The position numbers were made by a program, and so were the translations under genes. Positions 61 through 27,430 of a stretch of DNA of 64,000 nt are shown here, piece after piece (position 1 is the first letter of the stretch; each line of letters begins with the position of its first letter). The stretch covers positions 163,742,001 through 163,806,000 of the forward strand of contig OZ024741.1 in assembly GCA_964016885.1 (NCBI GenBank), in the 5' to 3' direction. Source of the stretch: Eledone cirrhosa (taxonomy: Eukaryota). The notes beneath the pieces are model-generated. The model did not search any database, was not told the origin of the DNA, and was given only the letters and a program-made list of their open reading frames with translations.

Positions 61-266
61 ATGGTTTCTACTGTAAGGACAATTTTCGGGGAAGAGCAGG
101 TCGATTAAATCGACCCCAGTGCTTTGCTGGTGCTTCATTTTGTCGACCCCGTAAGGATGAAAAGCAAAGTTAATCTCGGCGAGATTTGAACTCAGAACGT
201 AAAGGGACGTAATTATGTCACGAAACATGGTATCCGAGACTCTACCGATACTGTCAATCCACCGCC
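61..266 (-). mobile_element. tRNA-type SINE, older variant of the family repeated across the window
   Basis: Reverse complement starts GGCGGTGGATTGACAGTATCGGTAGAG, with B-box-like GAGTTCAAATC and core TTCATCCTTACGGGGTCGA shared with copies at 42861, 56048 and 60590. Confidence 0.85.
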
Positions 267-270: not shown

Positions 271-290
271 TAATAACAATAATAATAATA

Positions 291-350
<60 letters not shown>
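271..350. repeat. (AAT)n tract switching to (TTA)n; 5' flank of Tx1 copy A
   Basis: taataacaataataataataa followed by about 20 TTA units. Confidence 0.95.
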
Positions 351-566
351 GAATGCTATGGTTGACGGAGGCTCGGCTCTGTAAGGTATTGTAAATTTTG
401 AACGCTATAACAATTGTAAATTGTTTAAAACTTTAACCAACTTGTAGACAAAAACACCCTCCTCCTCGTGAGAGGGGTCTTTCTGCCCGTTATTTGGCCC
501 TTCGGGGTTAAATAACTGCTTATTAGGGTTTTGTGCCCAATATTTATTTTAAACAAAAAAAACAAC

Positions 567-2668
567 ATGGCTACGAAAAAGAATTTTCATAGGTCACTCC
601 CACTCATTCCGTCTTCTTCTTCCTCAATCGTCACTACACCAGAGGGAAGATTGTCTCTCTCGCCCTCCCTTCTCTAAATGTGTCTCTCTCCCTCCCTTCT
701 CTTTCGCAAGCGACGACAGAAAAGAAAAGTCTTGTGCAAAGCGTGCAAGATTTCTCCACGACGACAACGACGACGAAACAGGTGTGCGGGAAATACGAAA
801 ACCCATTTCATTCGTCTGACGTCAGGAATAATAGCAGTAGCAGCCGTAATAACAACAGCAACAGTGACAATGAAAACAACAGTAGCAGCCGCAACAGTAT
901 CAGCAACAGCATAAACAACAACAGCATTAGCAGCAGCAACACCAACAACAACCACAGCAACAGCGGCGGCGGCAGTAGTCGTAGTACCTGCAGCAACAAC
1001 AAAAGTGACAGCAGCTCTGACGACAACAACAACAACAACAACAACAGAGGCAAAGAAAAACCAACTCGTTTGCAGGTATCGCGAAGAACCTGGAAACAAT
1101 CCTCATAACAAATGAGGAATTAGAGGAAGCGAAGGAGATGGTGACAAAAACTGGACACCGAGCAATTTGCAAGGCAGCGGAAACATTTTTTCGAAACCCA
1201 ACAGCACTGTACGGTCACGTACCGTACAGTAAGTACAAAATCCCGTAGGGTTGAAAGAGGCACAGAGGCTCAAATACAAAAAGCCTTGGGGTCTGTGTGG
1301 CAGCGGAAAACGCACATCACCCGAGGCAATAAATATGCCACCGTAGACGTACTTTTTGCCACACCCCAGGAGGCAAAGGCTCAATCCGTAGTGACCCTAA
1401 GGAGCGAGGAAATAGTGTTGGTGCCCTCCTACTGCGGGCAAAAAATTGTGAGGGTCAAACTGACCCCCCCCCCCCCCCGGGATGGCCCCTTCTTGGCTGG
1501 CCGCGTCTGTCCTTGTCGGAATCGAGGACAAAACAACTGTACTGCAAGTACAGAAAAAAGTAAGAGAAGATTGGGTCGGCACCTCCATTGAGATGTTAAT
1601 CCAATCCAACCAGGAGTGCATCGAAGCTATCCCGGATGTGATAGACTTCGATAACGGCACTCAACTGCCCATAAGTGTTGAGGGCAAACGCCCGAAATGC
1701 TTTTTCTGTGGATCGAAGACTCACCTCAGGGCCTTCTGCAACGAGAAGACCCTGAGAAAGGAGAAAACCCCCCTCCTTCCGAAACCGGCTCCACGGCTAC
1801 CAGCAACAGGACAAGCGGCATCCAGGAACGATAGGTCCGTGGCACCCATACCCACGCCACGGAAATCAAAACCAGCAGCAGCAGTGGAAGTATTAACAAC
1901 AACAGCAATACCAAATGTAAAAGAGACTCCAGTGCAAACATCACCAACAACAACAAGTGAAAGAGTGGAGCTGGTACCCCTCCCCGACCTCACAGAATCA
2001 GACATGGAGTGTGAGGTGGAAGAGGGATGGCAAAAGGTCGTAAGAAGGCACAAACGCAGAAGCAGCGCATCGTCGCCTTTGAAAAGGGAGGAAAGAAATG
2101 AAAAAAGGGTAAAGTCTACTGCAAAGAGACTCACAGCAGCAACACCACCAACACCATCACCACCCACACTAGCACCACCATCACCACCGGCGACAACCCC
2201 ACCGCCAACAACACCTTCAACACCACCACCACAAGCACCAACATCGCAAACACAACAACAAAACACACACACCCAGCAACAACGACAAGAAAATAGCAGA
2301 ACCACACCCCACCCCAGAAAAATAAATGCACGGCAATAAATACACACAACAAGAAACTAATGACTTACATAATTGAACACACAGACATTTCACAACACGA
2401 CTACATAATACCAGCACCAATCAAAACGCCAACTAACATAAGACTGCTAAAAATAGCACAGAAACAATACACAAACATTAAAACGAAATTCCCCAACGCA
2501 GTTGGCGATTTCAGAGACCTAGGAGGAACTATCAACCGAAGAGTATATTCGGACATACTCATAGAAGAGCCGACGACCAGCCGAAGGGACGATTCAACGG
2601 TCCCTTCACCAGACGATCAAGTGAAAAGAGATGGAAAAACTATCCCTCCTCTACGAAAAGTACGATAA
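567..2668 (+). pseudogene. Tx1 ORF1 type 1, frameshifted (Asn/Ser-rich N-terminus, CCHC knuckle, Pro/Thr-rich linker)
   Basis: ORF pieces 680-1108, 1286-1591, 1482-2339 and 2360-2668; knuckle CFFCGSKTHLRAFC; colinear with 19106-21209. Confidence 0.8.
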
Positions 2669-2703
2669 GTGGTCTTTCCCATCTTTTCCACTCTATTTTA
2701 AAC

Positions 2704-4392
2704 ATGACCTCACTCAGAATAGGCAGCATAAATGCGCGTGGCTTCGGGTCGTCATGGAAGCAGGGTCACCTGCTCAACGACCTCAGGTCACTAAACATAG
2801 ATGTAGTGGCCATCAGCGAGACCAGAATCTCCGAAGCACGGGCCTTCGCACCGATCTTCGGCGGCTACGTGTGTACGCATCTCCCAGCCGTCCTGGATCG
2901 GGGGGGAGGAGTTGCTGTGCTTTTTCGCAGAGGTTTGGATCTCGCCATACGGGCCATCTTCCTGGACCCAGAGGGTAAGTTGGTGGTGCTGGACGTGACC
3001 AGCGGAAACGGGCAAGCTTTCAGGCTAGTGGCCGTCTATGCCCCGACAGGTGCAGGGCGGCCTCATTTCTTCCGGCGTCTGGAGACCTTTCTTGGAATGT
3101 CCCGCTCTTTAGTGTTAGTGGGCGACTGGAACGGGATCTTAGATGCACGCTGGGATTGTGTGGGATTAGTGGATAGGGGTGGAGGGTGCAAGAGCCTCAC
3201 CAAACTGCTCAGGCGTTTTGAACTGTCTGACAGGTACCGATTGGATTTCCCGAATGTGCCAATGTGGACTTGGACAAATCGCATAGGGTCATCCAGATCA
3301 TATCTAGATAGAGTATTTTGTAGGGACATAGATAGGTCTAGCATAGGCTGTCCACAATTCAAGTCAGCTACACGGACCACAAATTCGTGATCTGTGTGCT
3401 TGACTTAGATAGGCTTCATAGACGAGGACCCGACTACTGGAAGCTAAACGCGTCCTTACCAGCGCGCAAGGCCTACAGAGACCGGATTAGCAAACTAGTT
3501 AAGCGGGCGTTGACGGGGGCCATCGTCAACAACAAGTGGTGGTTTGCTCTGAAAAGAGCAATTAGAATAGACTCCTCTTCCTCGGCGGTGATCAGGTGTG
3601 GTCGCCGTTTGCTAGACACGTATTTCCTCAGCTCGTTTCCTTGACGGAGCTGCAGTCCTGGGTTAAGAGAAGACCGAGAGGGAGTGCCTGGAGACTGGAA
3701 TGTCTTCAGGCGCTCACAGCTCTCGACCAATCGGGCAATGTGATCGGTGGAAACTCCACCTCGGCGTTCTATACAGGATTAGTGGAGGGGAAGAGCGACG
3801 ACGTACTTGGGGAAACTCTAGGCGTCGACGAAAATCAACTAGCCAATCTCTTCGGAAGAACTTTCGGGCCAGGGCCTATGGACAACTTCCAGAAATCTCT
3901 GGCCTGGCAGTGCTACCGAGGAGCTTGCCAGTTCGGGATAAACTCTACAGGCATGGAGGTGCCGTCAGCCGGGCATGTCCGAGATGTGCGCAGGGCGACG
4001 AAACCGTCCTGCACGCACTCGTCCAGTGTCCGAAAATTGCTGACTAGTGGGTGTATGTCGAATACCTGCTGTCACGTGTAGGACGGATCCGGCTATCATC
4101 TCAGTCCATCGTGAGGATTGCCCCGCCCTCCTCCTTTAGCCGGGATGGGCAGGCAGTTTTTATCTGTCTGGTGGCCATGGCGAAAGAGATAGTATGGTGG
4201 ACACGTTTGAAAGGGCTGTAGTCGAGCACTTACCTCTTCGGTGATGCTCTGATTGACTTTTTCAAATTTCATTTGAAAAGGAAAATCAGAGTAGAGAGAG
4301 AAGTGCTCTCTTCCCAGCATTTTGTTGAAAGATGGGTGAGAGAAGCAAGAATGGCCCGAGTGAATGGGCCTACTCTGAGTATATATCTGTAA
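2704..4392 (+). pseudogene. Tx1 ORF2 remnant: APE endonuclease joined to the C-terminal zinc-knuckle region, RT missing
   Basis: APE motifs SINARG, AISETR, VGDWN, YLDR; junction near 3575; CPRCAQGDETVLHALVQC. Confidence 0.88.
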
Positions 4393-4640
4393 ATTAAAGG
4401 TGGAAAACTGGGAGAGGGCACTTGCCTTGGTGGTCAGGGTCACTGTGGCCTTTTACTGGGCTTTCTCCATAAATGTCCCTCCGAAGTCTCCCCCCTATTG
4501 GGGAATTTTTCATTGTTATTTTTTGTTACATCCTCTGTATTTGTTTTTTACACGGAGAAATGCCCATTTGTACCGTACTGTATTTTCCTGCACTGTCCTT
4601 AATGTCTACTTTATGTAAACCCTTGTGGTTAATAAAGAAA

Positions 4641-4642
<2 letters not shown>

Positions 4643-4696
<54 letters not shown>
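4643..4696. repeat. (TTA)n tract 3' of Tx1 copy A
   Basis: Direct reading. Confidence 0.95.
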
Positions 4697-4697
<1 letters not shown>

Positions 4698-4860
4698 GCG
4701 GTGGATTGGCAGTATCGGTAGAGAGTCGGATGCCATGCCATAGTTACGTACCTTAACGATCTGAGTTCAAATCCCGCTGAGGTTGACTTTGCCTTTCGAT
4801 AAAATAAGGTACCAGTAATGCACTGGGAAATTGCTGGCCTTGTGCCAAAAAGTAGAAACA
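4697..4860 (+). mobile_element. tRNA-type SINE inserted in the TTA tract
   Basis: GGCGGTGGATTGGCAGTATCGGTAGAG...GTAGAAACA; ATTATTATTATTATTAAT on both sides (TSD-like). Confidence 0.9.
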
Positions 4861-5467
4861 ATTATTATTATTATTAATAGCTCCCGTAAGTTTTTGATTT
4901 TTTACATATTTAAAACAATTGTGATAGAATAATTCTTATTACAAATGGAACATAAGATACCAGTCTTAACTCTCAGGAAGTGACAACGCATCACATTATG
5001 GCACAGGGCTCCAATATTTAATATTTAATTTTGTATCAGAAATTGTATAGTCAAAAAAGAAAATGGTTACAAACAACAGCCAAATAATTTCCCCACCAGC
5101 ACCACCACCGTCGCCGCCACCATCACCACCGTCGCCGCCACCATCACCACTACCATAAGAAATCTAGCCAAGTACAAAACAACGGCTGAAACAACACCAT
5201 CACTATAGTACTGCTATCCCATCACCACCGCTACCACTGCATCATCGCTACCACCACTATTCCCTCATTACTTCCTGTTAAGAGAGGGATGGTTGTAGTG
5301 CCACTACACAGGAATAGAAGTGAGGAAGGCATCAAAAGATATAAATAGACTGATTTAGTGACCCGGTTAAACAGCTAACAACAACAACACCAAAATAATT
5401 ATTGTTGTTGTATCTCTAAACTCTCTCAAAATGTTTAATTTAAACGATGTCAAATCCAGACTATAAT

Positions 5468-5674
5468 ATTGTTTCTACTTTTGGCACAAGGCCAGCAATT
5501 ACCCAAATAACAATTGTTTCTACTTTAGGCACAAGGCCAGAAATTACCCAGTGCATTACTGGTACTTTATTTTATCGACCCCGTAAAGGCAAAGTCAACC
5601 TCAGATCGTAAAGGGACGTAACTATGCTGGAAAGCATGGTGTTTGACCCTCTACCGATACTACCAATCCACTGC
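5468..5674 (-). mobile_element. tRNA-type SINE with duplicated 3' terminus
   Basis: Two tandem copies of TTGTTTCTACTTT(T/A)GGCACAAGGCCAG(C/A)AATTACCCA, then the SINE body in reverse. Confidence 0.85.
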
Positions 5675-6073
5675 CCACGATAATATAATAATAATAATAA
5701 GCAACAAGTCGAAAGATTATAGAACAGAACACAGACAAAAACAAATTTCAAAAGTTTTGAACGCATCAACCCCCAATGCCCTCGTAGCTAAAATCAAAAA
5801 CAGCAGCAGCAGTAACAACACTAGTAACCGATGTTACTGGCCTTGAAAAACGAAAAACGTAGAGGAAAAAAAACAAACAAAAAAAAAAACTAAGTCAGAC
5901 ATTCAAACATTACAATGAAACTTATATTTATTTTTTTAAGTTTTTATCTATTTATTTGTTTATTTATTTATTTCGTCTACAGCGTGATGGTGCCACGCTA
6001 AAATCACCGGGGTGATGAAATCACCGGTGGTTATGTAACCATACATTCACCCATCCTCGATTTGAGTGTTTAA

Positions 6074-9000
6074 ATGTCGAACCTAAACAGTTCGAATAAC
6101 GGTGAAGAGGAGACTGGAACGTCATCTGACACACTCTCACCCAGCAAGTGCCCCCTGGCCCAGCAGCAGGGACCTGGGTGTCATCCAAATACTGCTGGTG
6201 TTGGAGGAAGAAGAAGAAGGAAAGGGACAAGAACCAACTGGACGAAAGAATTGAATAGAACTGTAATGAAATGTTACCTGAAGAGTAACCCCAAGGAAAA
6301 AAGCTACAGGAAACGGATGCATAGCATCTGGAACGAGATTGGTCTATTTAAATTAGATGAACAAAAATTGGCCGAGCAGGTTCGGGTAATAAGAACTAAT
6401 GGATGGATAAGCGAGCTGGAACTGGAGGAACTCAGCAGAGAGATTAGGCTGGAAATAGAGAGTGGAGTATGTCAGGCAAACGAGAAAGTGGGAAATGAAG
6501 GTGAAGAGGTTGAGAGAACGGAGGAAGCTTCCGAAGCAGACAATGATCTGAATGCTGAAATAAATAATACCTGGAACAAAGATACGGCCATTGAGGAAAT
6601 GAATGCTGACGGGCTAGGACAAGATATCCTAAACTTAGTGGTAGACAGGAAAAAGGATTTGTAGACAGGAAAAAGGATTTGTAGACAGGAAAAAGTTAAA
6701 AGAAACAACAGCTAAGGTAAAGACAGTCATCCCATACCTTGAGGCGAGGAACCTTCACCAGTGCAACAATATCCTCAAAGCAACAGCAAATGCGGTGAGG
6801 AAATTACTTGGAATAAAAACGAGAGGAAACAACAAACAAGAAAGATCAGAACCTTGGTGGAGGAAACGACTGAATGATCAAATCAAGGAAATGAGAAATG
6901 ACATTGGAAAGTTTGAGTCCTTACTGAATGGGACACAAAACATAGACAATAAAAATAGATTGGAAATAAAGTACAAAACTAGGAGGAAAAAGCTAAATAT
7001 CATCATAGAGGAACTGAAGCAACGCATTGTAGCAAAGAGCGCAAAGATTAGGCGATACGAGAGCAGAGTCAGTCAGTATAGACAGAACCGCATGTTTCAC
7101 AAGAACCAGAAGATATTGTTTGGGCAGCTTGAAGGGAAAGAAAGAGGCAACGACTTGATCCCTGAGGCGGAACAGACTAAGACATTCTGGAGAGGATGTT
7201 AAATATAATGACCAGGCAGTGTGGATTGAGACAGTACAAAAGGAGATTAGTGAACAAGCACACCAACAAACTGATTTGAGTATCACAGTTGTAACTCTTA
7301 AGGGGCAGGCCAAAAAACAAACCAACTGGAAATCACCAGGCCCAGATGGTGTGCAGGGGTATTGGATTAAAAATATAACATCCCTCCACCCGAAACTGAC
7401 AACCATGTTCAATGACTGCTTGATGTCGGGTGAGGTACCAGAGTGGTTGACAAAAGGTACCACAGTTCTGGTAATGAAAGACCGAATCAAGAGTAATGAT
7501 GTTACCAATTATAGACCTATCACATGTCTGTCCGTAATGTGGAAACTGTTAACAAACATAGTGTCTGAGGAAATCTACCATCACCTCCACATAAACAACT
7601 TCTTACCGGACTAACAGAAAGGATGCCGAAAGAAGTCCCGTGCTACAAAAGACCAGTTACTTATTGATAAGATGGTAATGGGGAATTGCAAGAGAAGACA
7701 CACTGGTCTTGCCATGGGATGCATAGATTACAAAAAGGCACATTCGACATGGTACCTCATTCTTGGATAACCAAAAGCCTAGAGATCTTCAAGGTGACAG
7801 ATAACATCAGACGTTGTTGAGCAAAAGTATGAAGTCCTGGGAAACAGAGTTAACATCGGGTGGAGAATCCTTGGGAGGCGTGAAGATCAAGAGGGGTATC
7901 TTGCAGGGAGATAGTTTGTGCCCTTCTGTTGTTTGTCTTTGCCCTGATAGCCCTGACCATTATACTGCGAAAAGTGTGAGCAGGATACAAGTTGGGAAAA
8001 GGAGAGCTTACCATCAACCACCTCCTCTTCATGGACGATCTTAAACTCTTTGGGAAGAGTGAGAAGGAGTTGGATGTACTTTTGACACTGTCAAGTATTT
8101 TCAGCAATGATATATGTTAACAATTTGGTATTAATAAGTGTGGAGTCCTTGTGATGAAGAGGGGTAAATTGAGCAGAAGCAACGGAATCCGGGTACAAAC
8201 AGGTGAGATGATAAAGGAAATTGACACTAAAGGATACAAATATTTAAGTGTTCTGGAGGCAGATAACATCACGAACAAAGAAAATGAAGGAATTGATAAG
8301 ATGTGAGTACATTAGGAGAGTAAGGAGCGTATTAAAATCACATCTAAATAGTAGGAATGTCATAAGTGCAGTGAATTCCCGAGCTGTATCTATTATTAGG
8401 TACAGTGCGGGAATTCTGAAATGGAATGTTGCTTAACAAAAAGAAATGGATAGGAAGACTAGGAAGCTATTGACTATCTACAACAAGTTCCACAAGAGGA
8501 GTGATGTCGATAGATTCTACTTAAGGAGATCTGAAGGTGGAAGAAGTCTTATCAACATAGAGGACTGTGTTCAGATGCAGAAAAACAACCTACACAAATA
8601 CGTGACTGATAGTAAGGAGCCAATGCCCAGAATTGTACTGAAGGAGAGGACAATAGACCAGGGGATGTCCAAGGAGGAAATAACAACAAGGAGCAAGAGC
8701 AGCCTTCATGAAAAATCCCTTCATAGTACCTTCTTTGAGAAAACTGAATTCAGAGATCCACAGACATGGAACTGGTTGAAAAGAGGAGACCTTAAAAAGG
8801 CTACAGAAGGAATGCTATTGGCTGCACAAGAGCAGACCCTCAAAACGAAGTGGTTGAAACACCATATTTACAAGGAGGAGGCTATCCCACTGTGCAGGAT
8901 CTGTGGAGAGAGAGAGGAGACTGTGGCTCACATTGTATCCGAGTGTAAACACCTAGCCCAGACTCACTATAAAGGCTGGAGACATGATGTGATGGGCAGG

Positions 9001-9397
9001 GTGATACATTGGCACCTATGCAAAGTAAACAATTTACCACATTCTGAGAAGTGGTATGAGCATAAGCCAGAGTCGGTGATAGAAAACGATCAGGTGAAGG
9101 TGCTGTGGGATTTTAGGATACAGACGGACAAGAAACTGGAACACAATAGACACGAGAGTGCAAGAGAAGGAGAGGGAGAAAATTAACCGATACCAGGACT
9201 TAAAGTGGGAAGTAAAAAGGATTTGGAACTGCCATGAAGTCAAAGTGATCCCGATTGTCATAGGCGCACTAGGTACTATCTCAAAAAGTTTCCAGGGATG
9301 GTTAAAGAAAATTGTTCCCGCCCCGCTTTTTGGAACACTTCAAAAGGCATGCTTGCTGGGAATAGCAACAACTCTCCGATACGTCCTGAATATCTGA
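6074..9397 (+). pseudogene. Dong/R4 single ORF (RT, CCHC, RLE) broken by stops, frameshifts and a deletion of the PD motif
   Basis: ORF pieces 6074-6664, 6795-7202, 7219-7614, 7814-8044, 8248-8436, 8446-9186 and 9158-9397; the 3' pieces are colinear with the intact ORF 24286-26214. Confidence 0.88.
6641..6695 (+). repeat. 20-bp tandem duplication GTAGACAGGAAAAAGGATTT, about 2.7 copies
   Basis: Direct reading; the TAG at 6662-6664 ends ORF 6074-6664. Confidence 0.9.
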
Positions 9398-9474
9398 GGC
9401 TGCAGGTAGTGGCTTGATATTCACTTCAACAAACTTTTCAGTTAACTAACATCAATGACTGAGACTCAAAGAAC

Positions 9475-9518
<44 letters not shown>
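9475..9518. repeat. (AAT)n spacer between Dong copy 1 and Tx1 copy C (tail to tail)
   Basis: Direct reading. Confidence 0.95.
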
Positions 9519-9763
9519 GGTTTTCTTTATTAACCACAAGGGTTTACATAAAGTAGACATTAAGGACAGTACAGGACAATACAGGACGGTACAAATGGGC
9601 ATTTCTGCGTGTAAAAAAAACAGAGGTTGAAATAAAATAACAAAGAAAAATTCCCCAATAGGGGGGAGACTTCCGAGGGACATTTGTGGAGAAAGCCCAT
9701 TAAAAGACCACAGTGGCCCTGACCTCCAGGGCAAGTGCCCTCTCCCAGTTTTCCACCTGTAAT

Positions 9764-12700
9764 TTACAGACACATACTCAGAGAAGGCCCATTCATTCGG
9801 GCCATACTTGCTTCTCTCACCCATCTTTCAACAAAATGCTGGGAAGAGAGCACTTCCCTCTCTACCCTGATTTTCCTTTTCAAATGAAATTTGAAAAAGT
9901 TAATCAGGGCATCACCGAAGAGGTAAGTGCTCGTCTTCAGCCCTTTCAAACGTGTCCACCATACTATCTCTTTCGCCATGGCCACCAGACAGATAAAAAC
10001 TGCCTGCCCTTCCCGGCTAAAGGAAGGGGGCGGGGCAATCCTCACGATGGACTCAGCTGATAGCTGGATCCGTCCTACACGTGACAGCAGGTGTTCGACA
10101 TAAACCCACAAGTCAGCAATGCTCGGACACTGGACGAGTGCGTGCAGGACGGTTTCGTCGCCCTGCGCGCATCTCGGACATGCCCGGCTGACGGCACCTC
10201 CATGCCTGTAGAGTTTATCCCGAACTGGCAAAGCTCCTCGGTAGCACTGCCAGGCCAGGGATTTCTGGAAGTTGTCCATAGGCCCCGGCCCGAAAGTCCT
10301 TCCGAGGAGATTGGCTAGTTGATTTTCGTCGACGCCTAGAGTTTCTCCAAGTACGTCGTCGCTTTTGCCCTCCACTAATCCCCTATAGAACGCCAAGGTG
10401 GAGTTTACACCGATCACATTGCCCGATTGGTCGAGGGCTGTGAGCGCCTGAAGACATTCCAGTCTCCAAGCGCTCCCTCTCGGTCTTCGCTTGACCCAGG
10501 ACTGCAGCTCCGTCAAGGAGACGAGCTGGGGAAAAACGCGTCTAGCAAACGGCGACCACACCTGATCACCGTCGAGGAAGAGGTGGAGATGTCGTAGCCT
10601 GAGCGCGTGTCTGCGCATCATCAGCCCTCCACGTAGCGGGTGTTGACAGCAGATGGACCGCCTGACCATCGGAGCGCGTCCCTTCCACAAGAAGCGAAAG
10701 AGCAAACGCTCCAGCGCAGTCAGGCGGGGCTTAGGACAAGGTACGACGGTCAGGCGGTAGTAGATGACGGATGCGATGTACGCATTCGCCACCCCCGCTC
10801 GACCTTTCAGGGATAGCTTCCTCTCGGCCCATTTCTGGGTGAGAGAAGCCACCCTGCTCGTCACCTCGTCCCAGTTTTTGTCCGTCTGGAGGTCTGGACC
10901 GAACCAGACCCCTAGCAATTTAACCGGTCCGTCCGTCCAGCGCCAGACGACGCTGTTGGACGGCATGGACCTGCCTCTCCAGGTGCCGAGCTGCAGGTCC
11001 ACTGACTTTTCCTGGTTGATCATTGCTCCTGTCACCGCTTCGTATTCTCTTAGTGTAGTGCCGATCGCCTCGATGTGTTTGGCGTTCGACACCACTACGG
11101 TAACATCGTCGGCATATGCTGACACGGATCTTCCGCATCCTAGTTCGCGCGGGACCCCCCTCAACGTCTCCAGTTTGTGCAGTAATGGCTCGAGAGTCAA
11201 TACGTACAATAGGGACGAGAGGGGACATCCTTGGCGGACCGAGCGCATGATGTTGAACGGTTCCTAAAGGTGACCGTTCACTCTCACTACAGAGCAGATG
11301 TCGCTGTGCATGGCAGCGATCCAGCCTCTGAAGACGGGCCCAAAGCCAGCCGCCCTCAGGACTGCCGCTAGGTAACGATGGTCGACCCTATCGAAGGCTT
11401 TCGATTGATCTAAATTAATCAAAGACCCACCCTTGCCAGGTTCCCTAGCTACCCTCTCTACGATGTATCGCATGAGGTGGAGGTTGTCGTGGATGGATCT
11501 GTCGGGAATGGCGCATGTCTGAGCCTCTCCCACCAGACCACCAACGACAAGCGCCAACCTCTTTGCTAGCACCTTGGCCAAAATCTTGAACTCTGTGTTT
11601 AGCAGAGTTATGGGCCTAAAATTATCTATGTTATCCCCCTTGTTCAGATCCTTTCTCAGCAGCGCCACCGCTCCTCGGCTCACAGAGCTGGGAATTCTCC
11701 CGTTCTGTTGCCAGTTGCAGTAGACGTCCGCCAAGAGGCCTCCGAACAAGTTTGGCATTTGTACGTAAAGTTCATAGGGCAGACCATCTAAACCAGGCGA
11801 TTTACCCCTTGTGCAACTAGTCATTGCATCCCGTACTTCAGCGGTTGTTATCGGCTTTTCGCAACACTCCGCCTCAGTGGCCGAAAGCCGCGGCAGTCCG
11901 TCGAGGTAGACACTAAAGTTCATCCCTCGATCCGGCCCGCCACTGCCTCCGAACAGTTGAGCGAAGTGTCGCTGAAAAGCTTCACACATTTTCCCGGGAT
12001 CGAGTAGCATGCGCCCGTCGTGGTCCACCAAAGACCGGATCGTGGCTTTGTTGCCACGACGCGCCTCCGCCACTCGGGCCTATTGAACGGCTTTCGTCCC
12101 CTCGTGTCTGAGAGCACGCACCCTAGCTCTGACAACGCAGCCTTCGTGCTTTGCCTTGAAGAATTGGTCAAGGGCCAATTTCGCCGCAAGTACGTCGGTC
12201 GCGATGCCTTTGCTAAGCGCCTCATCTAATTTTCTAACTAGTTCTCCCTCTGCTCTATTTTTCTCTATTGCTAAAGTCTTACTAAACCTAATGGACTCTA
12301 TTCTAATTGCTCTTTTCAGAGCAAACCACCACTTGTTGTTGACGATGGCCCCCGTCAACGCCCGCTTAACTAGTTCGCTAATCCGGTCTCTGTAGGCCTT
12401 GCGCGCTGGTAAGGACGCGTTTAGCGTCCAGTAGCCGGGTCCTCGCCTATGAAGCCTATCTAAGTCAAGCACACAGATCACGAATTTGTGGTCCGTGTAG
12501 CTGACTATCTTGAATTGTGGACAGCTTATGCTAGACCTATCTATTTCCCTACAAAATACTCTATCTAGATATGATCTGGATGACCCTATGCGATTTGTCC
12601 AAGTCCACATTGGCAAATTCGGGAAATCCATTCGGTACCTGTCAGACAGTTCAAAACGTCTGAGCAGGTTGGTGAGACTCTTGCACCCTCCTTCCCTATC

Positions 12701-13168
12701 CACTAATCCCACACAAACCCAGCGTGCATCTAAGATCCCGTTCCAGTCGCCCACTAACACTAAAGAGCGGGACGTTCCAAGAAAGGTCTCCAGACGCTGG
12801 AAGAAATCAGGCCGCCCTGCTCCTGTCCGTGCATAGACGGCCACTAACCTGAAAGCTTGCCCGTCTCCGCTGGTCACGTCCAGCACCACCAACTTAACTT
12901 CTGGGTCCAGGAAGATGGCCCGTATGGCAAGATCCAAACCTCTCCGAAAAAGCACAGCAACTCCTCCCCCCGATCCCGGGCGGCTGGGAGATGCGTACAC
13001 ATCGTAGCCGCCGAAGATTGGTGCGAAGGCCTGTGCTTCGGAGATTCTGGTCTCGCTGATGGCCACTACATCTATGTTTAGTGACCTGAGGTCGTTGAGC
13101 AGGTGGCCCTGCTTCCATGACGACCCCAAGCCACGCGCATTTATGCTGCCTATTCTGAGTGAGGTCAT
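9764..13168 (-). pseudogene. Tx1 ORF2 (APE, RT, zinc knuckle) with two in-frame stops (12080, 11264) and a 15-bp deletion
   Basis: MTSLRIGSINARG, YTDHK, NFRPITLLN, LDQSKAFDRVDH, RQGCPLS, YADDVT, CPRC...H...C. Confidence 0.92.
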
Positions 13169-13202
13169 GTTAAAAAGGAGTGGAAAAGATGGGAAAGACC
13201 AC

Positions 13203-15163
13203 TTACCTTACTTCTCGTAGGGGAAGGACGGTTTTTCCATCCTTTTCACTGCTTGTGGCCCCCTCAGGAAGGATGTCCTTATAAATCCTCCTGGAGAGTG
13301 CTTGTCGGAAGTCTCCGATGTCTTTGGGGAATTTTTGTTTTAGTGTCATGTACGTTTTCTGTGTGATGCGAGTGATTTGTATGTGTGGAGGTGGTGTGAA
13401 TTTTGGGGTTGTTGTGTAGTATTTTTCTGTGATGCTGGTGTTGTGTTGGATGTAGTGTAATAATTGCTTGTTGTTCAATTTAATGCTGTGTAGTGTGTAT
13501 CGTTTTGGTTGTTTTGTTTTGTTTGCGTTTGTTGTGGGTTTGTTTCTGTTTCGCATTTTGGTGACTTTTGTGATGTAGGTGATGGTGGTGTTGGGGTTAA
13601 TGATGGTGATGGTGTTAGTGTTTGGGTTGATGGGGTTGGTGATGCTGGTGTGGATGGTGGCATATCTGTCCTAACTTTTTTGTTTCTTAATTTATTTGTT
13701 TCCCTCTGTATTTTGTTTTTGGAGGGGGAAGGAAGAGAATTTTTTCTTTTTTGGTTTCTTTTTTTTTTCCGGATATCGTTTCCCACTCCTCGTCGTCACA
13801 ATCTGTCTCCAGTTGTGATAGGCCGGGGAGTGGAAAATCCTCCACAGCCGTTAGTTTTGGTTGTGGTGTGGTGGATGGTGTAGGCGCTGGTGCTAGTTCT
13901 GAAGCGTTGGGTGGTGGTGGTGTTGGTTTTGCTACTGTTGCTGGGGTTGTTGCTGTTATAGTTGCTTCTGTTGTTGCTGCTACAGTTGTTGCTGCCATCT
14001 CTGCTACTGGTGGTGTTGATGGTTGTGTCACTGGGGTGGGTAGGAGAGGTGGCCTCAACCTTTTAGCCTGAAGGCTGAAAGCCCTTAGGTGGGTTCCTTC
14101 ACCACAAACGACACACCTAGGTCTTCTGCCCTCGATAATTACCGTGAGGTGGCTGCCGTCAGTGAGGTCTATTACCTCTGGGATCTCCTCAATGCTTTTT
14201 TGGTCCGCTTGGATCAGGAGCTCCATCCCAGATCCGGACCAGTTTTCCTGCTTTTCTTTTGCTACTGCTATTATTTTCGTGTTGGCTTCGATGCCGGCGA
14301 GGACAGCCGCTATTAGCCAGGGAATTTCGATGGCCGGTGGAAGGTGGGTCACCCTGATCTTTACGAGTCTCTGGCCACAATAGCTTGGGACGAGTGTGAA
14401 GTCGTCACTTTTTAATGGGGCCATGGAGTGTTCTCTAGCCTCCTCTGGTGTTTCAAAGAACACATCCACGGTTCCATACTTTTGCCCACGTCTGATGTGG
14501 GTTTTTCTTGCCCACACATGTCCCAAAGCTTTTTGGATTTGGGACTCGGATGCCCGTTCCACTCGGCGCGATTTTACATTTATTGTTCTATACGACACGG
14601 TGCATAGGCACCGATGCTCCATTTTATTAGGTTGGGGGGGGGGGTGAGGCTGACACTGTACCCATCTTTCTTTACCATTTGTTTGGCATTTTCTAAATCC
14701 TCTTGAGTTACCGTGAACGCTTCGAATTGTTTTGCTACGATGGCGAATCTGAGGGTCGGTTTTATAATGTCATTGTTGTTGTTGTTGTTGCTATCGTTAT
14801 TTGTGTTAATCTTAATTTTAGTTTCAGTTGTGGTGGTGGTGACGTCAGTCGTCTTTGGTGGGGAATAGTCCATTTTGCTTGATTTCATTTCGACATCACG
14901 AGTTAATTTTTTTTTTTCTTCTTTTGTTTCTGTTGTCGCGGTGGTGGTGGGGGTGGTGGTTGTCGCGGTGGTGGTGGTGGTGGAGGCAGTCATTGGTAAT
15001 GGTGGGAAATGAATGTCTGCCTGAGACAAATTTAAAATATTGCTACTGCTTATATTTTTTTTGTGTTGGCAAACGTAGTAACATTTACAATGGTGGTGTC
15101 GGTGTGAGGTGTTATTTTGTGAGGAAGGCTTTCAGCTGCTTCGTGCAGAGGGGAATTGGCCAT
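13203..15163 (-). pseudogene. Tx1 ORF1 type 2, frameshifted at homopolymers
   Basis: Pieces 14580-15029, 13687-14622, 13475-13786 and 13203-13556; KTHIRRGQKYGTVDVFF aligns with type 1 KTHITRGNKYATVDVLF; CVVCGEGTHLRAF. Confidence 0.8.
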
Positions 15164-15371
15164 TTTTTTTCAAAGAAATTTTTGGATAATAATAAACGTT
15201 AAAATTTTGGGCACAAGGCCCCAATCTTTTTGGGTGTCCTTTTCGGAAAACAATGTATGTGTGCTTATAAACAGTTAACAATAAAATTTTCCATAAATGG
15301 CAATTTTTAACAAACGGAAATAACAAACCTTTGCGGAGCTCACGATGATACGATTTACTACGTAGGTCGCC

Positions 15372-15410
<39 letters not shown>
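15372..15410. repeat. (AAT)n spacer between Tx1 copies C and B
   Basis: 13 AAT units. Confidence 0.95.
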
Positions 15411-15411
<1 letters not shown>

Positions 15412-15652
15412 TTTTCTTTATTAACCACAAGGGTTTACATAAAGTAGACATTAAGGACAGTACAGGACAATACAGGACGGTACAAATGGGCATTTCTGCG
15501 TGTAAAAAACGGAGGTTGAAATAAAATAACAAAGAAATATTCCCCAATAGGGGGGAGACTTCCGAGGAACATTTGTGGAGAAAGCCCATTAAAAGACCAC
15601 AGTGGCCCTGACCACCAGGACAAGTGCCCTCTCCCAGTTTTCCACCTTTAAT

Positions 15653-18600
15653 TTACAGACACATACTCAGAGAAGGCCCATTCATTCGGGCCATACTTGC
15701 TTCTCTCACCCATCTTTCAACAAAATGATGGGAAGAGAGCACCTCCCTCTCTACCCTGATTTTCCTTTTCAAATGAAATTTGAAAAAGTTAATCAGGGCA
15801 TCACCGAAGAGGTAAGTGCTCGTCTTCAGCCCTTTCAAACGTGTCCACCATACTATCTCTTTCGCCATGGCCACCAGACAGATGAAAACTGCCTGCCCTT
15901 CCCGGCTAAAGGAAGGGGGCGGGACAATCCTCACGATGGACTCAGCTGATAGCTGGATCCGTCCTACACGTGACAGCAGGTGTTCGACATAAACCCACAA
16001 GTCAGCAATGCTCGGACACTGGACGAGTGCGTGCAGGACGGTTTCGTCGCCCTGCGCGCATCTCGGACATGCCCGGCTGACGGCACCTCCATGCCTGTAG
16101 AGTTTATCCCGAACTGGCAAAGCTCCTCGGTAGCACTGCCAGGCCAGGGATTTCTGGAAGTTGTCCATAGGCCCCGGCCCGAAAGTCCTTCCGAAGAGAT
16201 TGGCTAGTTGATTTTCGTCGACGCCTAGAGTTTCTCCAAGTACGTCGTCGCTCTTCCCCTCCACTAATCCCCTATAGAACGCCAAGGTGGAGTTTCCACC
16301 GATCACATTGCCCGATTGGTCGAGGGCTGTGAGCGCTTGAAGACATTCCATTCTCCAAGCGCTCCCTCTCGGTCTTCGCTTGACCCAGGACCGCAGCTCC
16401 GTCAAGGAGACGAGCTGGGAAAAACGCGTCTAGCAAACGGCGACCACACCTGATCACCGTCGAGGAAGAGGTGGAGATGTCGTAGCCTGAGCGCGTGTCT
16501 GCGCATCAACAGCCACGGCATGCCCAGCCCTCCACGTAGCGGGTGTTGACAGCAGATGGACCGCCTGACCATCGGAGCCCGTCCCTTCCACAAGAAGCGA
16601 AAGAGCAAACGCTCCAGCGCAGTCAGGCGGGGCTTAGGACAAGGTACGACGGTCAGGCGGTAGTAGATGACGGATGCGATGTACGCATTCGCCACCTCCG
16701 CTCGACCTTTCAGGGATAGCTTCCTCTCGGCCCATTTCTGGGTGAGAGAAGCCACCCTGCTCGTCACCTCGTCCCAGTTTTTGTCCGTCTGGAGGTCTGG
16801 ACCGAACCAGACCCCTAGCAATTTAACCGGTCCGTCCGTCCAGCGCCAGACGACGCTGTTGGACAGCATGGACCTGCCTCTCCAGGTGCCGAGCTGCAGA
16901 ACCACTGACTTTTTCAGGTTGCTCATTGCTCCTGTCACCGCTTCGTATTCTCTTAGTGTAGTGCCGATCGCCTCGATGTGTGTGGCGTTCGACACCACTA
17001 CGGTGACATCGTCCGCGTATGCTGACACGGATCTTCCGCATCCTAGTTTGCGCGGGACACCCCTCAACGTCTCCAGTTTGTGCAGTAATTGCTCGAGAAT
17101 CAATACGTACAAGAGGGACGAGAGGGGACATCCTTGTCGGACCGAGCGCATGATGTTCAACGATTCCGAAAGGTGACTGTTCACTCTCACCACAGAGCAG
17201 ACATCGCTGTGCATGGCAGCGATCCAGCCTCTGAAGACGGGCCCAAAGCCAGCCCGCCTTAGGACTGCCGCTAGGTAACGATGGTCGACCTTATCGAAAG
17301 CTTTCGACTGATCTAAATTGATCAAAGACCCACCCGTACCAGGTTCCCTAGCTACCCTCTCTGCGATGTATCGCATGAGGTGGACGTTGTTGTGGATGGA
17401 TCTGTCTGGAATGGCGCACGCCTGCACCTCTCCCACCAGACCACCAACCACAACCGCCAACCTCTTTGCTAGCACCTTGGCCAAAATCTTGAACTCTGTG
17501 TTTAGCAGAGTTTTGGGCCTAAAATTATCTATGTTATCCCCCTTGTTCGGATCCTTTCTCAGCAGCGCCACCGCTCCTCGGCTCACAGAGCTGGGAATTC
17601 TACCATTCTGTTGCCAGTTGCAATAGACGTCCGCCAAGAGGCCTCCGAACAAGTCTGGTATTTGTACGTAAATTGTACGCAGACCATCCAAACCAGGCGA
17701 TTTACCCCTTGTGCAGCCAGTCATTGCTTCCCGTACTTCAGTGGCTGTTATCAGCTTTTCGCAACACTCCGCCTCAGTGGCCGAGAGCCGAGGCAGTCCG
17801 TCGAGGTAGACACTAAAGTCCATCCCTCGATCCGGCCCGCCGCTGTCCGCGAACAGTTGAGCGAAGTGTCGCTGAAAAGTTTCACACATTTGCCCGGGAT
17901 CGAGTAGCATGCGTCCGTCGTGGTCCACCAAAGACCGGGTCGTGGCTATGTTGCCACGACGCGCCTCAGCCACTCGGGCCCATTGAACGGCTTTCGTCCC
18001 CTCGTGTCTGAGAGCACGCACCCTAGCTCTGACAACGCAGCCTTCGTGCTTTGCATTGAAGAATTGGTCAAGGGCCAATTTCGCCGCAAGTACTTCTGTC
18101 GCGATGCCTTTGCTAAGCGCCTCGTCTAATTTTTTCACTAATTCTCCCTCTGCTCTATTTTTCTCTATTGTTAAAGCCTTACTAAACCTAATGGACCCTA
18201 TTCTAATTGCTCTTAGGAGAGCAAACCACCACTTGTTGTTGACGATGGCCCCGTCAACGCCCGCTTAACTAGTTTGCTAATCCGGTCTCTGTAGGCCTTG
18301 CGCGCTGGTAAGGATGCGTTTAGCTTCCAGTAGCCGGGTCCTCGTCTATGAAGCCTATCTAAGTCAAGCACACAGATCACGAATTTGTGGTCCGTGTAGC
18401 TGACTATCTTGAATTGTGGACAGCTTATGCTAGACCTATCTATTTCCCTACAAAATACTCTATCTAGATATGATCTGGGTGATCCTATGCGATTTGTCCA
18501 AGTCCACATTGGCAAATTCGGGAAATCCAATCGGTACCTGTCAGAGAGTTCAAAATGCCTGAGCAGGTAGGTTGGTGAGGCTCTTGCACCCTCCTCCCCT

Positions 18601-19071
18601 ATCCGCTAATCCCAAACAGTCCCAGCGTGCATCTAAGATCCCGTTACAGTCGCCCACTAACACTAAAGAGCGGCACGTTCCTAGAAAGGTCTCCAGACGC
18701 CGGAAGAAATCATCCCGCCCTGCTCCTGTCGGGGCATAGACGGCCACTAGTCTGCAAGCTTGCCCTTCTCCGCTGGTCACGTCCAGCACCACCAACTTAC
18801 CTTCTGGGTCCAGGAAGATGGCCCGTATGGCGAGATCCAAACCTCTCTGAAAAAGCACAGCAACTCCTCCCCCCGATCCCGGACGGCTGGGAGATGCGTA
18901 CACATCGTAGCCGCCGAAGATCGGTGCGAAGGCCCGTGCTTCAGAGATTCTGGTCTCGTTGATGGCCACTACATCTATGTTTAGTGACCTGAGGTCGTTG
19001 AGCAGGTGACCCTGCTTCCATGATGACCCCAAGCCATGCGCATTTATGCTGCCTATTCTGAGTAAGGTCAC
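15653..19071 (-). pseudogene. Tx1 ORF2 with several frameshifts; start codon reads GTG
   Basis: Pieces 18550-19071, 18213-18530, 16402-18138 and 15653-16405 carrying APE, RT (YADD) and knuckle motifs. Confidence 0.92.
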
Positions 19072-19105
19072 GTTGAAATGGAGTGGAAAAGATGGGAAAG
19101 ACCAA

Positions 19106-21209
19106 TTACCTTACTTCTTCTCGCAGAGGAAGGATGGTGTCACCATTCCTTTTCACTTGATCGTCTGGTGAAGGGACCGTTGAATCGCCCCTTTGGCTTT
19201 GTCGTCGGCTCTTCTGTGAGTATATCCGAATATACTCTCCGGTTGAGTGTCCCTCCTAGGTCTCTGAAATCACCAACTGCGTTGGGGAATTTCGTTTTAA
19301 TGTTTGTGTATTGTTTCTGTGCTATTTTTACCAGTCTTATGTCCGTTGGTGTTTTGATTGGTGCTGGTATTATGTAGTCGTGCTGTGAAATGTCTGTGTG
19401 TTCAATTATGTAAGTCATTAATTTCTTGTTATGTGTATTTATTGCTGTGCATTTGTTTTACTGGGGGTGGGGTGTAGTTCTGCTATTTTATTGTCGGTGT
19501 TGCTGGGTGTGTGTGTTTTGTTGTTGTGTTTGCGATGTTGGTGCTTGTGGTGGTGGTGTTGAAGGTGTTGTTGTTGTTGGCGGTGGTGTTGTCGCCGGTG
19601 GTGGTGCTAGTGTTTGTGGTGTTGCTGCTGTGAGTCTCTTTGCAGTAGCCTTTACCCTTTTTTCATTTCTTTCCTCCTTTTTCGAAGGCGACGATGCGCT
19701 GCTTCTGCGTTTGTGCCTTCTTGCGACCTTTTGCCATCCCTCTCCCACCACACACTCCATGTCCGATTCTGTGAGGTCGGGGAGGGGTACCAGCTCCACT
19801 CTTTCACTTGTTGTTGTTGGTGATGTTTGCAGTGGAGTCTCTGTTGCAGCTGCAGTTGGTATTGCTGTTGTTGTTGTTAATACTTCCACTGCTCCTGCTG
19901 TTCTTGATTTCCGTGGCGTGGGTATGTGTGCCACGGACGTATCCTTCCTGGTTGCCGCCTGTCCTTTTGCTGGTGGCCGTGGAGCCGGTTTCGGAAGGAG
20001 GGGGGTTTTCTCCTTTCTCAGGGTGTTCTCATTGCAGAAGGCCCTGAGGTGAGTCTTCGATCCAAAGCGAAAGCATTTCGGGCGTTTGCCCTCAACACTT
20101 ATGGGCAGTTGAGTGCCGTTATCGAAGTCTATCACATCCGGGATAGCTTCGATGCACTCCTGGTTTGTTTGGATTCTCAATGGAGGTGCCGACCCAATCT
20201 TCTCGTACTTTTTTCTGTACTTGCAGTACAGTTGTTTTGTCCTCGATTCCGACGAGGACAGACGCGGCCAGCCAAGAAGGGGCCACCGGGGGGGGGGGGG
20301 TCATTTTGACCCTCACAATTTTTTGTCCGCAGTAGGAGGCCACCAACACCATTTCCTCGCTCCTTAGGGTCACTAAGGATTGAGCGTTTGCCTCCTGGGG
20401 TGTGGAAAAAAGCACGTCTACGGTGGCATATTTCTTGCTCCGGGTGATATGCGTTTTCCGCTGTCACACAGACCCTAAGGCTTTTTTATTTGAGCCTCTG
20501 TGGCCCTTTCAATCCTACGGGATTTTGTGCTTGCTATACGGTACGTGACCGTACAGTGCTGTTGGGTTTCGAAAAAATGTTCGGCTGCCTTGCAGATTGC
20601 TCGGTGTCCAGTTTTCATCATCATCTTCTTTGCTTCCTGTAATTCCTCATTTGTTATAAATATGGTTTCCAGGTTCTTTGTGATACCTGCAAACGAGATT
20701 GGTTTTTCTTTGCCTCTGTTGTTGTTGTTGTTGTTGTTGTCGTCAGAGCTGCTGTCACTTTTGTTGTTTCTGCCGGTACTACGACTACTGCCGACGCCGC
20801 TGTTGCTGTGGTTGTTGTTGTTGTTGCTGCTGATGCTGTTGTTGTTTATGCTGCTGCTGATGCTTTTGCGGCTGCTACTGTTGTTTTCCTTGTCACTGTT
20901 GCTGCTGCTGCTGTTATTACGGCTGCTACTGCTATTATTCATGACGTCAGACGAATGAAATGGGTTTTCGTATTTACCGCACACCTTTTTCGTCGTTGTC
21001 GTCGTCGTGGAGAAACGTTCCACGTTTTGCACGTGATTTTGGAAACTATTTTTCTTTACTGGCGTCGCTTGCGAAAGAGAAGGGAGGGAGAGAGGCACAT
21101 TTAGAGAAGGGAGGGAGAGAGACAATCTTCTCTCTGGTGTAGTGACGATTGAGGAAGAAGAAGACAGAATGAGTGGGAGTGACTTGTGAAAATTATTTTT
21201 TGTAGCCAT
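19106..21209 (-). pseudogene. Tx1 ORF1 type 1, disrupted
   Basis: MATKNNFHKSLP start; pieces 20475-21242, 20119-20415, 19488-20180 and 19140-19418 match copy A. Confidence 0.82.
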
Positions 21210-21424
21210 GTTTTTTTTTGGTTTAAAATAAATATTGGGCACAACACCCCAATAAGCGGTTATTTAACCATGAAGGGCCAAATAACGGGCAGAAAGACCC
21301 CTCTCACGAGGAGGAGGGTGTTTTTGTCTACAATTTGATTAAAGTTTTAAACAATTTACAATTGTTATAGCGGTTAAAATTTACTATACCTTACAGAGCC
21401 GAGCCTCCGTCAACCATGCCATTC

Positions 21425-21500
<76 letters not shown>

Positions 21501-21503
21501 TAA
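21425..21503. repeat. (AAT)n spacer between the Tx1 B head and Dong family 2
   Basis: Direct reading. Confidence 0.95.
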
Positions 21504-24200: not shown

Positions 24201-24206
24201 AATAAT

Positions 24207-24269
<63 letters not shown>
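24201..24269. repeat. (AAT)n spacer
   Basis: Direct reading. Confidence 0.95.

Positions 24270-26287: not shown

Positions 26288-26288
<1 letters not shown>
24270..26288 (+). mobile_element. Dong family 1 copy 2, 5'-truncated, young
   Basis: Begins mid-RT (CACATGTCTG, equivalent to about 7521); 3'UTR ends ATTCAAGG then (AAT)n. Confidence 0.93.
24286..26214 (+). CDS. Uninterrupted 642-aa C-terminal part of the Dong polyprotein (RT, CCHC, PD-(D/E)xK endonuclease); N-terminally truncated, expression unproven
   Basis: [57 protein letters not shown]...IVDVACP...EREKINRY. Confidence 0.8.

Positions 26289-26366
<78 letters not shown>
26289..26366. repeat. (AAT)n spacer
   Basis: 26 AAT units. Confidence 0.95.
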
Positions 26367-26369
<3 letters not shown>

Positions 26370-27384: not shown

Positions 27385-27397
27385 AATAACAATAATG

Positions 27398-27430
<33 letters not shown>
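27385..27430. repeat. Imperfect (AAT)n spacer
   Basis: aataacaataatgataat... Confidence 0.9.

What the first reader, a model, noticed from the sequence alone, without database searches (positions are those of the whole stretch)
271..4696. (ATT)n-specific Tx1-clade family whose orientation flips with tract polarity
Seen: copy A is on + where the tract reads TTA; copies B and C are on - where it reads AAT. All three 5' junctions have the same phase (ATTATT|GAATG, ATTATT|GAATG, ATTATT|GGCGA), and 3' ends are AGAAATC|ATT, AGAAAAC|ATT and AGAAAACC|TTA. A 3' tail alone cannot explain repeats at intact 5' ends. Established Tx1 targets include TC and TTC repeats (Kibi, Koshi), U2 snRNA genes (Keno) and tRNA arrays (Dewa). 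I do not know of an ATT-specific family, but cannot exclude one.
Basis: partly seen in the sequence, partly recalled or inferred. Interest (0 to 1): 0.75.

Follow-up and report, generated by a model that had tools for sequence, protein, structure and literature searches.

The report
Octopod LINE that targets ATT repeats
Three copies of a Tx1-type jumping gene in this window, likely from an octopus-like animal, sit inside ATT repeats in one fixed orientation, opposite to an unrelated retrotransposon using the same repeats, which likely reflects a repeat target I could not find described for this group.

Summary
Observation confirmed. Copies A (351-4642, +), B (9519-15371, -) and C (15411-21424, -) all lie in (ATT)n on their sense strand, with the junction phases reported. 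Corrections: B and C share one tract, so there are two independent loci; A lacks about 1.7 kb including RT; B's 5' half is a second type on the same ORF2. The RT tree places the family among Tx1 elements, apart from vertebrate L1; the nearest named protein is from Argonauta hians (67%). The outer tracts abut RLE-type (Dong/R4-like) LINEs and a SINE-like repeat that read them as (AAT)n, so they likely predate the insertions. Raw reads show two further internal breakpoints joined to the tract, with no denominator. The nearest relatives with visible flanks (43% ORF2 identity) form head-to-tail arrays without ATT, so the target is not shared across the wider clade. No paper search found an ATT-specific Tx1; Repbase and Dfam could not be searched. 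The scan had not noted this on other DNA. Verdict: a likely new target for a known kind of site-specific LINE; genome-wide specificity is unproven. Interest 0.42.

The parts
291..350 (+). (ATT)20 tract, 5' flank of copy A; meets a short (AAT)5 run (278-292) that follows a SINE-like repeat at 113-266 (+)
351..4642 (+). Tx1-type copy A: 5' type 1, frameshifted ORF1, ORF2 start at 2704 with the APE domain, about 1.7 kb internal deletion near 3570-3574 that removes RT, 3' UTR ending AATAAA plus 6 nt
4643..4694 (+). (ATT)17 tract, 3' flank of A; abuts the 3' end of a SINE-like repeat on the minus strand
4695..4874 (-). SINE-like dispersed repeat (8 near-complete or 3'-part copies in the window), here with (AAT)n on its own sense strand at both ends; no Rfam match
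5975..9474 (+). Degraded RLE-type (Dong/R4-like) LINE whose 3' end runs into the tract that holds B; its 5' boundary is approximate
   Evidence: about 90% identical to 24270-26288, typed
9475..9518 (+). (AAT)14 tract, 3' flank of B
9519..15371 (-). Tx1-type copy B: 5' type 2, and the least damaged ORF2
9764..13168 (-). ORF2 of B: 1134 codons in one frame with two internal TAG stops; APE endonuclease (PF03372), RT (PF00078), C-terminal zinc motif (PF13966)
13687..14769 (-). ORF1 core of B with a CX2CX4H knuckle; paralogous to ORF1 of A/C (49-62% aa in the two best blocks against A)
15372..15410 (+). (AAT)13 tract shared by C's 3' end and B's 5' end
15411..21424 (-). Tx1-type copy C: 5' type 1, full length, several frameshifts
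21425..21500 (+). (AAT)25 tract, 5' flank of C; also the 5' flank of a truncated RLE-type LINE
21501..28157 (+). Four 5'-truncated RLE-type LINE copies in tandem (21501-24199, 24270-26288, 26367-27384, 27431-28157), each preceded by (AAT)n; polarity opposite to the Tx1-type copies

Best explanation
This is a Tx1-type LINE family with an APE endonuclease and reverse transcriptase whose three copies sit inside (ATT)n tracts in one polarity and phase, likely because its ORF2 protein nicks the (AAT)n strand at a T/A step and primes reverse transcription there. Shown: the anatomy, the junctions, the tree position, and that the outer tracts abut other elements which read them as (AAT)n. Inferred steps: (1) the nick is 5'-AAT/AAT-3' on the strand opposite the element's sense, read from the 3' junctions; (2) the primer end may pair with a few AUU units on the RNA, since AATAAA lies only 6-7 nt before the tract and no poly(A) is copied; (3) second-strand joining falls in the same tract, so both flanks are ATT and a target duplication cannot be measured; (4) the tract left at a copy's 3' end is again a target, which gives tandems such as C-B; (5) targeting maps to the ORF2/3' half, because two different 5' halves show the same phase. 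Dong/R4-like LINEs and a SINE-like repeat use the same tracts in the other orientation and likely supply targets.
For: Six of six ends lie in ATT, with one 5' phase; p about 3e-5 for two loci, and none in the more abundant (AT)n tracts. The 5' tracts of A and C have no Tx1 copy upstream. In raw reads of run X12, 2 of the 12 rows shown in table 5c join an internal point (16110, 123 reads; 16601, 115 reads) to the tract through AAT-type letters; neither point is an AATT library cut site. APE and RT motifs are present. The tree puts the family with TX1-named proteins (93/93 and 94/95 branches); grouping with vertebrate L1 is rejected, p-AU 0.0145. Precedent: Tx1 families target TC, TTC and TTCC/TTTC repeats (PMC4494074, passages and section 15). 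In SART1/TRAS1 the endonuclease sets the target, TRAS1 nicks at a T-A step, the two insert in opposite directions in one repeat, and short target-like RNA ends improve accurate priming (PMC7265360, passages).
Against: Only two independent window loci and no whole genome. Table 5c lists only joints with both sides on the stretch, so copies with non-ATT flanks could not appear there; 515 rows of it and 9064 loose-end rows were hidden. One large loose-end pile (18065, 25,593 reads, mixed AT-rich letters, agreement 0.35) is not ATT; it sits exactly on an AATT site of the kind where this library's fragments end, so it is likely a ligation chimera, but that is my inference. The nearest relatives with visible flanks show no ATT: 0 of 82 (redundant) 3' ends. 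Four such relatives share one endonuclease hairpin-loop sequence or differ by one residue, yet carry different junction sequences, so sequence-specific cutting is not evident in the sister group. No cleavage data exist.
Confidence: 0.68

Rival explanations
1. RNA-guided choice: the endonuclease nicks T/A steps loosely, and the target is set mainly by read-through 3' RNA. A founder that landed in an ATT tract makes transcripts ending in (AUU)n, which pair only with nicked (AAT)n strands, so the target is inherited through the flank.
For: AATAAA lies 6-7 nt from the tract in all three copies, with no poly(A) in the DNA. In the sister lineage about 17 nt follow AATAAA before the next unit, for full-length and truncated next units alike, and families with 93-100% identical ORF2 carry different such stretches. 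R1Bm needs downstream target sequence for accurate reverse transcription (as stated in PMC7265360, passages).
Against: Endonuclease swaps moved target specificity between SART1 and TRAS1 (PMC7265360), and Tx1L endonuclease alone nicks almost only its target (PMC1950540, passages). In two sister arrays the flank before the first unit does not equal the internal 17-nt stretch, so that stretch looks like the element's own end, not a copied target.
Confidence: 0.12
2. No strict target: the element has a relaxed preference for AT-rich T/A steps, makes its own (ATT)n tail, tends to insert next to earlier copies, and survives best in gene-free repeat piles such as this one.
For: The sister lineage builds head-to-tail arrays at unrelated sites. 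B is adjacent to C, and both read joints land next to the 3' end of the stretch laid. The window was chosen because it looks striking.
Against: A is a single copy and C has a non-Tx1 5' neighbour, yet both have 60-76 nt of perfect ATT at the 5' end. No copy lies in (AT)n, which is richer in T/A steps and twice as abundant.
Confidence: 0.14
3. The 5' (ATT)n is part of the element itself (transcription starts in the tract and it is copied along), or the junctions are assembly joins across microsatellites.
For: Microsatellites are common places for mis-joins (general knowledge). No single contig spanned the stretch laid.
Against: Two internal breakpoints also join to the tract in raw reads. The copies differ by 5-10% and carry private indels. 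Both 5' types show the same phase. The tracts continue directly into the ends of unrelated elements.
Confidence: 0.06

Closest known systems
Kibi (TC)n, Koshi (TTC)n and the crocodilian (TTCC)n/(TTTC)n Tx1 families (PMC4494074, PMC3812793; passages)
   Same: Tx1-clade APE LINEs inserted in microsatellites, identified by repeats on both flanks
   Different: Target unit is ATT, host is a likely octopod. No labelled Kibi or Koshi sequence was available, so kinship to them is untested.
Xenopus Tx1L (UniRef YTX2_XENLA entry, P0043)
   Same: ORF2 layout APE-RT-zinc motif; 29% identity over 982 aa, E 3e-87; same broad branch of the tree
   Different: Tx1L targets the Tx1D DNA transposon (PMC4494074); its hairpin-loop stretch is 2 residues longer by the same motif search; separate sub-lineage
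Dong / R4 clade, (TAA)n-specific in insects, molluscs and cnidarians (PMC7998251, PMC3812793; passages)
   Same: Same microsatellite. Dong/R4-like copies lie in this very window, in the tracts around B and C.
   Different: Dong uses a restriction-like endonuclease (PMC7998251; the review PMC3812793 lists it among APE types) and here reads the tract as (AAT)n; this family uses APE and the opposite polarity
SART1 and TRAS1 in (TTAGG)n; Keno and Utopia in U2 genes (PMC7265360, PMC4640811; passages)
   Same: Two retrotransposon lineages share one repeat target, in opposite directions (SART/TRAS) or with unrelated endonucleases (Keno/Utopia)
   Different: Here both features occur together, on a simple trinucleotide repeat
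Unnamed sister lineage in host DNA within genome G001 (loci L035-L073, L076-L085)
   Same: 43% RT-region identity, 100/100 clade with this family, homologous ORF1, and the same exchange of 5' halves on a near-constant ORF2
   Different: Intact head-to-tail arrays with no ATT at the junctions

Membership tests
Tx1 clade | ORF2 with N-terminal APE endonuclease, RT and C-terminal zinc motif | tested here: met
   PF03372, PF00078 and PF13966 in B's single ORF2 frame; catalytic motifs present
Tx1 clade | RT groups with Tx1 elements and not with L1 proper | tested here: met
   37-row tree: inside the 25-row set holding all TX1-named proteins (93/93), with the Xenopus Tx1L group at 94/95; vertebrate L1 separate at 100/100. 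AU rejects union with L1 (p 0.0145) and does not reject union with the Tx1L group (p 0.092). Groups were named after seeing the tree; model LG+G4; support is good but under the 95 bootstrap mark. Two L1 rows were checked against human ORF2p, about 600 bits against 171 for B.
Tx1 clade | ORF1 upstream of ORF2 with a zinc knuckle (recalled feature) | tested here: met
   CX2CX4H(X4C) in both ORF1 types; homologous to the sister lineage's ORF1, best E 4e-12. No Pfam hit above cut-off, no database homolog.
Target-specific Tx1 family | More than 20% of copies genome-wide flanked by the same repeat (criterion of PMC4494074) | tested here: inconclusive
   3 of 3 window copies (2 loci) and 2 read joints; no genome-wide denominator
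Target-specific Tx1 family | Endonuclease cleaves the target in vitro | not testable with these tools
   needs a bench assay
Kibi / Koshi lineage | Inserted in (TC)n or (TTC)n | tested here: not met
   all six flanks are (ATT)n
Kibi / Koshi lineage | RT groups with Kibi/Koshi | not testable with these tools
   no sequence labelled Kibi or Koshi was returned; Repbase is not available
Dong / R4 clade | C-terminal restriction-like endonuclease and no APE | tested here: not met
   Copies A-C carry APE. The plus-strand neighbours do fit: RT and a C-terminal PD..D-type stretch align to R2Tg. Their assignment to Dong/R4 rather than another RLE clade is inferred from target and host.
L1 clade proper | RT groups with vertebrate L1; poly(A) tail | tested here: not met
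   union rejected; no poly(A) at any of three 3' ends

The most novel reading that the evidence does not exclude
The family acquired its target without changing its enzyme: a few (AUU) units of read-through RNA guide each new copy to any (AAT)n strand, so a LINE's insertion target is inherited through its own 3' flank, and an RLE LINE in the opposite orientation keeps making new targets for it.
Probability: 0.12. Interest if true: 0.8.

Novelty: new variant of a known kind. Interest (0 to 1): 0.42.

Why it matters
It would add (ATT)n to the targets of APE-type LINEs and give a case where an APE and an RLE retrotransposon share one microsatellite on opposite strands, like SART/TRAS and Keno/Utopia. 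L1-Tx1 is a sizeable, recently active class in Octopus vulgaris (80 families, 56 Mb; 13 recently active families; PMC13282606, passages and one supplementary table), and that paper's main text does not use the word 'target'. A target rule would explain nested repeat piles and the interruption of AAT microsatellites in these genomes. The natural 5'-half swap and the non-ATT sister lineage give a ready comparison for asking whether the endonuclease or the RNA end sets the target.

Tried and rejected
No whole genome is held for the window, so no genome-wide junction logo was possible. JGI metagenome scan: 34 loci; of the 15 whose ends and repeats I printed, none had an ATT/AAT tract, and all were distant relatives. 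Viral contigs: 98 pattern matches, 0 relatives. ORF1 homolog search: 0 of 3009 candidates passed. Rfam on the window: 0 matches, so the SINE-like repeat's head is unassigned. Rfam and ARAGORN on nine sister-array loci: no RNA-gene target; Rfam on eight other loci found only U1 genes around the distant L074. The idea that the 17-nt stretch between sister units is a duplication of the original host site was not supported in the two array starts seen. The loose-end table shows no row at either element end, but 24 of 9088 rows were shown, so I do not count that. Depth is not a copy number. Runs X4 and X10-X14 had small or unmeasured shares of the query's words; 4 of 14 runs were laid. The ESM Atlas gave no clade name for the RLE neighbour. 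Earlier-finding look-ups found nothing on this DNA or idea; one search gave two notes on another Tx1 topic. Paper searches returned no ATT- or AAT-specific Tx1 family; PMC3124438, PMC5753468, PMC11203168, PMC8869645 and PMC8967140 (passages) added nothing on targets. No structure prediction was run.
Full report
What is there. The window holds three related LINE copies: A 351-4642 (+), B 9519-15371 (-) and C 15411-21424 (-). Every end abuts a perfect trinucleotide tract that reads (ATT)n on the element's sense strand. The 5' junctions are ATTATT|G in all three. The 3' junctions are AATAAA plus 6-7 nt and then the tract, with no poly(A). Such tracts are 1.06% of the non-element DNA, which gives p of about 3e-5 for two loci with set polarity, post hoc; the more abundant (AT)n tracts hold no copy. 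No further copy of the family lies in the window.

Corrections. B and C share the tract 15372-15410, so there are two independent loci and the argument from B's 5' end is void. A has lost about 1.7 kb including RT. B's ORF2 is one frame of 1134 codons with two stops and carries APE, RT and the zinc motif. B's 5' UTR and ORF1 are a second type: 40-60% nucleotide identity to A/C in alignment windows, ORF1 49-62% amino-acid identity to A in the best blocks, against 90-100% from ORF2 onward. A and C align from base 1, so both are likely full length.

Where the tracts come from. A lies between two copies of a SINE-like repeat facing tail to tail; its 3' tract runs straight into the 3' end of the minus-strand copy. 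Only 3 of the 8 copies of that repeat with a 3' end are followed by (AAT)n, so the tract is not an obligatory SINE tail. B and C lie between the 3' end of one plus-strand LINE (ending 9474) and the truncated 5' end of another (from 21501). These neighbours have RT and a C-terminal restriction-like stretch that align to R2Tg. All 4 truncated ones are preceded by (AAT)n; 4 of 5 are followed by it, the fifth by (CAA)n. This fits Dong/R4, which targets (TAA)n in molluscs (PMC7998251, passages) and is abundant in octopus (PMC13282606, PMC8967140, passages); the clade name is inferred. So the outer tracts are likely older than the Tx1-type copies, and the two lineages use them in opposite polarity.

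Family placement. The nearest named protein is from Argonauta hians (67%), after an unnamed NCBI protein (77%), so the host is likely an octopod. Xenopus Tx1L aligns at 29% over 982 aa. A quick 90-row RT tree (L002 dropped for lack of an RT match) and a careful 37-row subset place B and C in a 100/100 clade with unnamed relatives, inside the set that holds all TX1-named proteins (93/93) and apart from vertebrate L1 (100/100). Union with L1 is rejected (p-AU 0.0145); union with the Tx1L group is not (0.092) (groups named after seeing the tree). Kibi, Koshi and Keno could not be placed.

Evidence from outside the window. No genome is held. Nine of 14 listed runs hold part of copy C; four were laid on 15399-21436. 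In all four the family is abundant and diverse (10,635 to 411,837 records laid), in at least three coded organisms. The ORF2 part is several-fold deeper than C's 5' half, as expected from truncation and other 5' types; depth is not copy number. Two of the 12 rows shown in table 5c join an internal point to the tract through AAT-type letters (16110, 123 reads; 16601, 115 reads). I read these as 5'-truncated copies at other loci whose breakpoints are in (ATT)n, possibly in tandem with another copy's 3' end. Neither is at an AATT site. That table cannot list non-ATT flanks, and most rows were hidden. Against my reading, a pile of 25,593 reads leaves the element at 18065 into mixed AT-rich letters. 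This is an AATT site, and four listed fragment ends of the library also fall on AATT sites, so I take it as a ligation chimera.

The sister lineage. The genome-contig scan found 41 loci of intact close relatives in host DNA binned into one bacterial genome, G001, 43% identical to C in the RT region. They form head-to-tail arrays. None of 82 3' ends counted (overlapping loci, so redundant) has three ATT/AAT units within 60 nt. About 17 nt follow AATAAA before the next unit, whether that unit is full length or truncated. Among eight units sampled, ORF2 is 93-100% identical while 5' halves fall to 54-68% between types. So exchange of 5' halves is a trait of the wider clade, and ATT targeting is not. 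This is one host only.

Mechanism. Shown: anatomy, polarity, phase, neighbours, tree. Inferred: target-primed reverse transcription from a nick at AAT/AAT on the strand opposite the element's sense, possibly helped by pairing with a few AUU units on the RNA; second-strand joining in the same tract; re-use of the remaining tract for tandems; targeting carried by ORF2 or the 3' end, since both 5' types share the phase (one B-type copy only). Precedent: endonuclease swaps move the target between SART1 and TRAS1, TRAS1 nicks at a T-A step, and target-like RNA ends improve priming (PMC7265360, passages); Tx1L endonuclease is sequence-specific and the hairpin loop shapes nicking (PMC1950540, passages). 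This family's loop stretch is 9 residues by a motif search, against 11 in Tx1L and in the G001 relatives. I give this 0.68, relaxed preference with tandem re-insertion and retention bias 0.14, RNA-end-guided choice 0.12, and element-borne repeat or mis-assembly 0.06.

Novelty. Targets named for Tx1 in what I read: Tx1D, U2, (TC)n, (TTC)n, (TTCC)n/(TTTC)n, other transposons, and by figure legend U5, 5S and satellites (PMC4494074, passages and section 15); telomeric repeats (PMC10088271, passages). A review lists microsatellite targets ACAY, AC, TC, TTC and TAA, the last for Dong (PMC3812793, passages). Searches found no ATT-specific Tx1. I could not see Figure 3 or the supplements of PMC4494074, Kojima and Fujiwara 2004, Repbase or Dfam, any of which may already hold it; I put that at roughly one in three (judgement). 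The scan's own notes held nothing on this DNA or target.

Verdict. A real feature and a new variant of a known kind: a microsatellite-targeting Tx1 family with a target unit I could not find described, sharing its target with an RLE LINE in the opposite orientation. A specialist would find it neat more than surprising, because Tx1 targets are known to change often. Interest 0.42.

Noticed in passing
window 13250-15371 (-) against 351-2620 (+) and 19157-21424 (-): Two 5' types (5' UTR plus ORF1) on one ORF2; the switch lies about 80 nt before the ORF2 start, next to a GTAAGT splice-donor-like motif.
   Followed up: partly
L035-L073, L076-L085 (genome G001): Many contigs of this bacterial genome bin are animal-like DNA made of intact Tx1-type head-to-tail arrays with about 6.4-6.8 kb units, several 5' types and embedded truncated units; likely host contamination and a self-tandem lineage of interest in itself.
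   Followed up: partly
window 5975-9474 and 21501-28157 (+): Two distinct RLE-type families (54% RT identity over 178 columns) stacked in AAT tracts; the last copy is followed by (CAA)23 instead of (AAT)n.
   Followed up: partly
window 113-266, 4695-4874, 5506-5675, 42861-43068, 46568-46762, 49521-49709, 56048-56235, 60578-60775: A SINE-like repeat of about 190-200 nt, 75-90% identical between copies; some copies have (AAT)n at one or both ends on their sense strand, others none; no Rfam match.
   Followed up: partly
window 51560-53796 (+): A third, unrelated APE-RT LINE remnant, used only as a tree outgroup.
   Followed up: no
window 46866-47761, 39206-39606, 37933-38078: Long inverted-repeat (palindromic) elements, 85-91% self-complementary, MITE-like.
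   Followed up: no
L074 3036-3199 and 9961-10137: A distant Tx1-type element lies between two U1 snRNA gene matches.
   Followed up: no
L013 1-80: The contig starts with sequence that I recall as U2 snRNA-like, just upstream of an RT match; not tested.
   Followed up: no
L010 4285-4339: A distant relative is followed by an (AT)n tract at the contig end.
   Followed up: no
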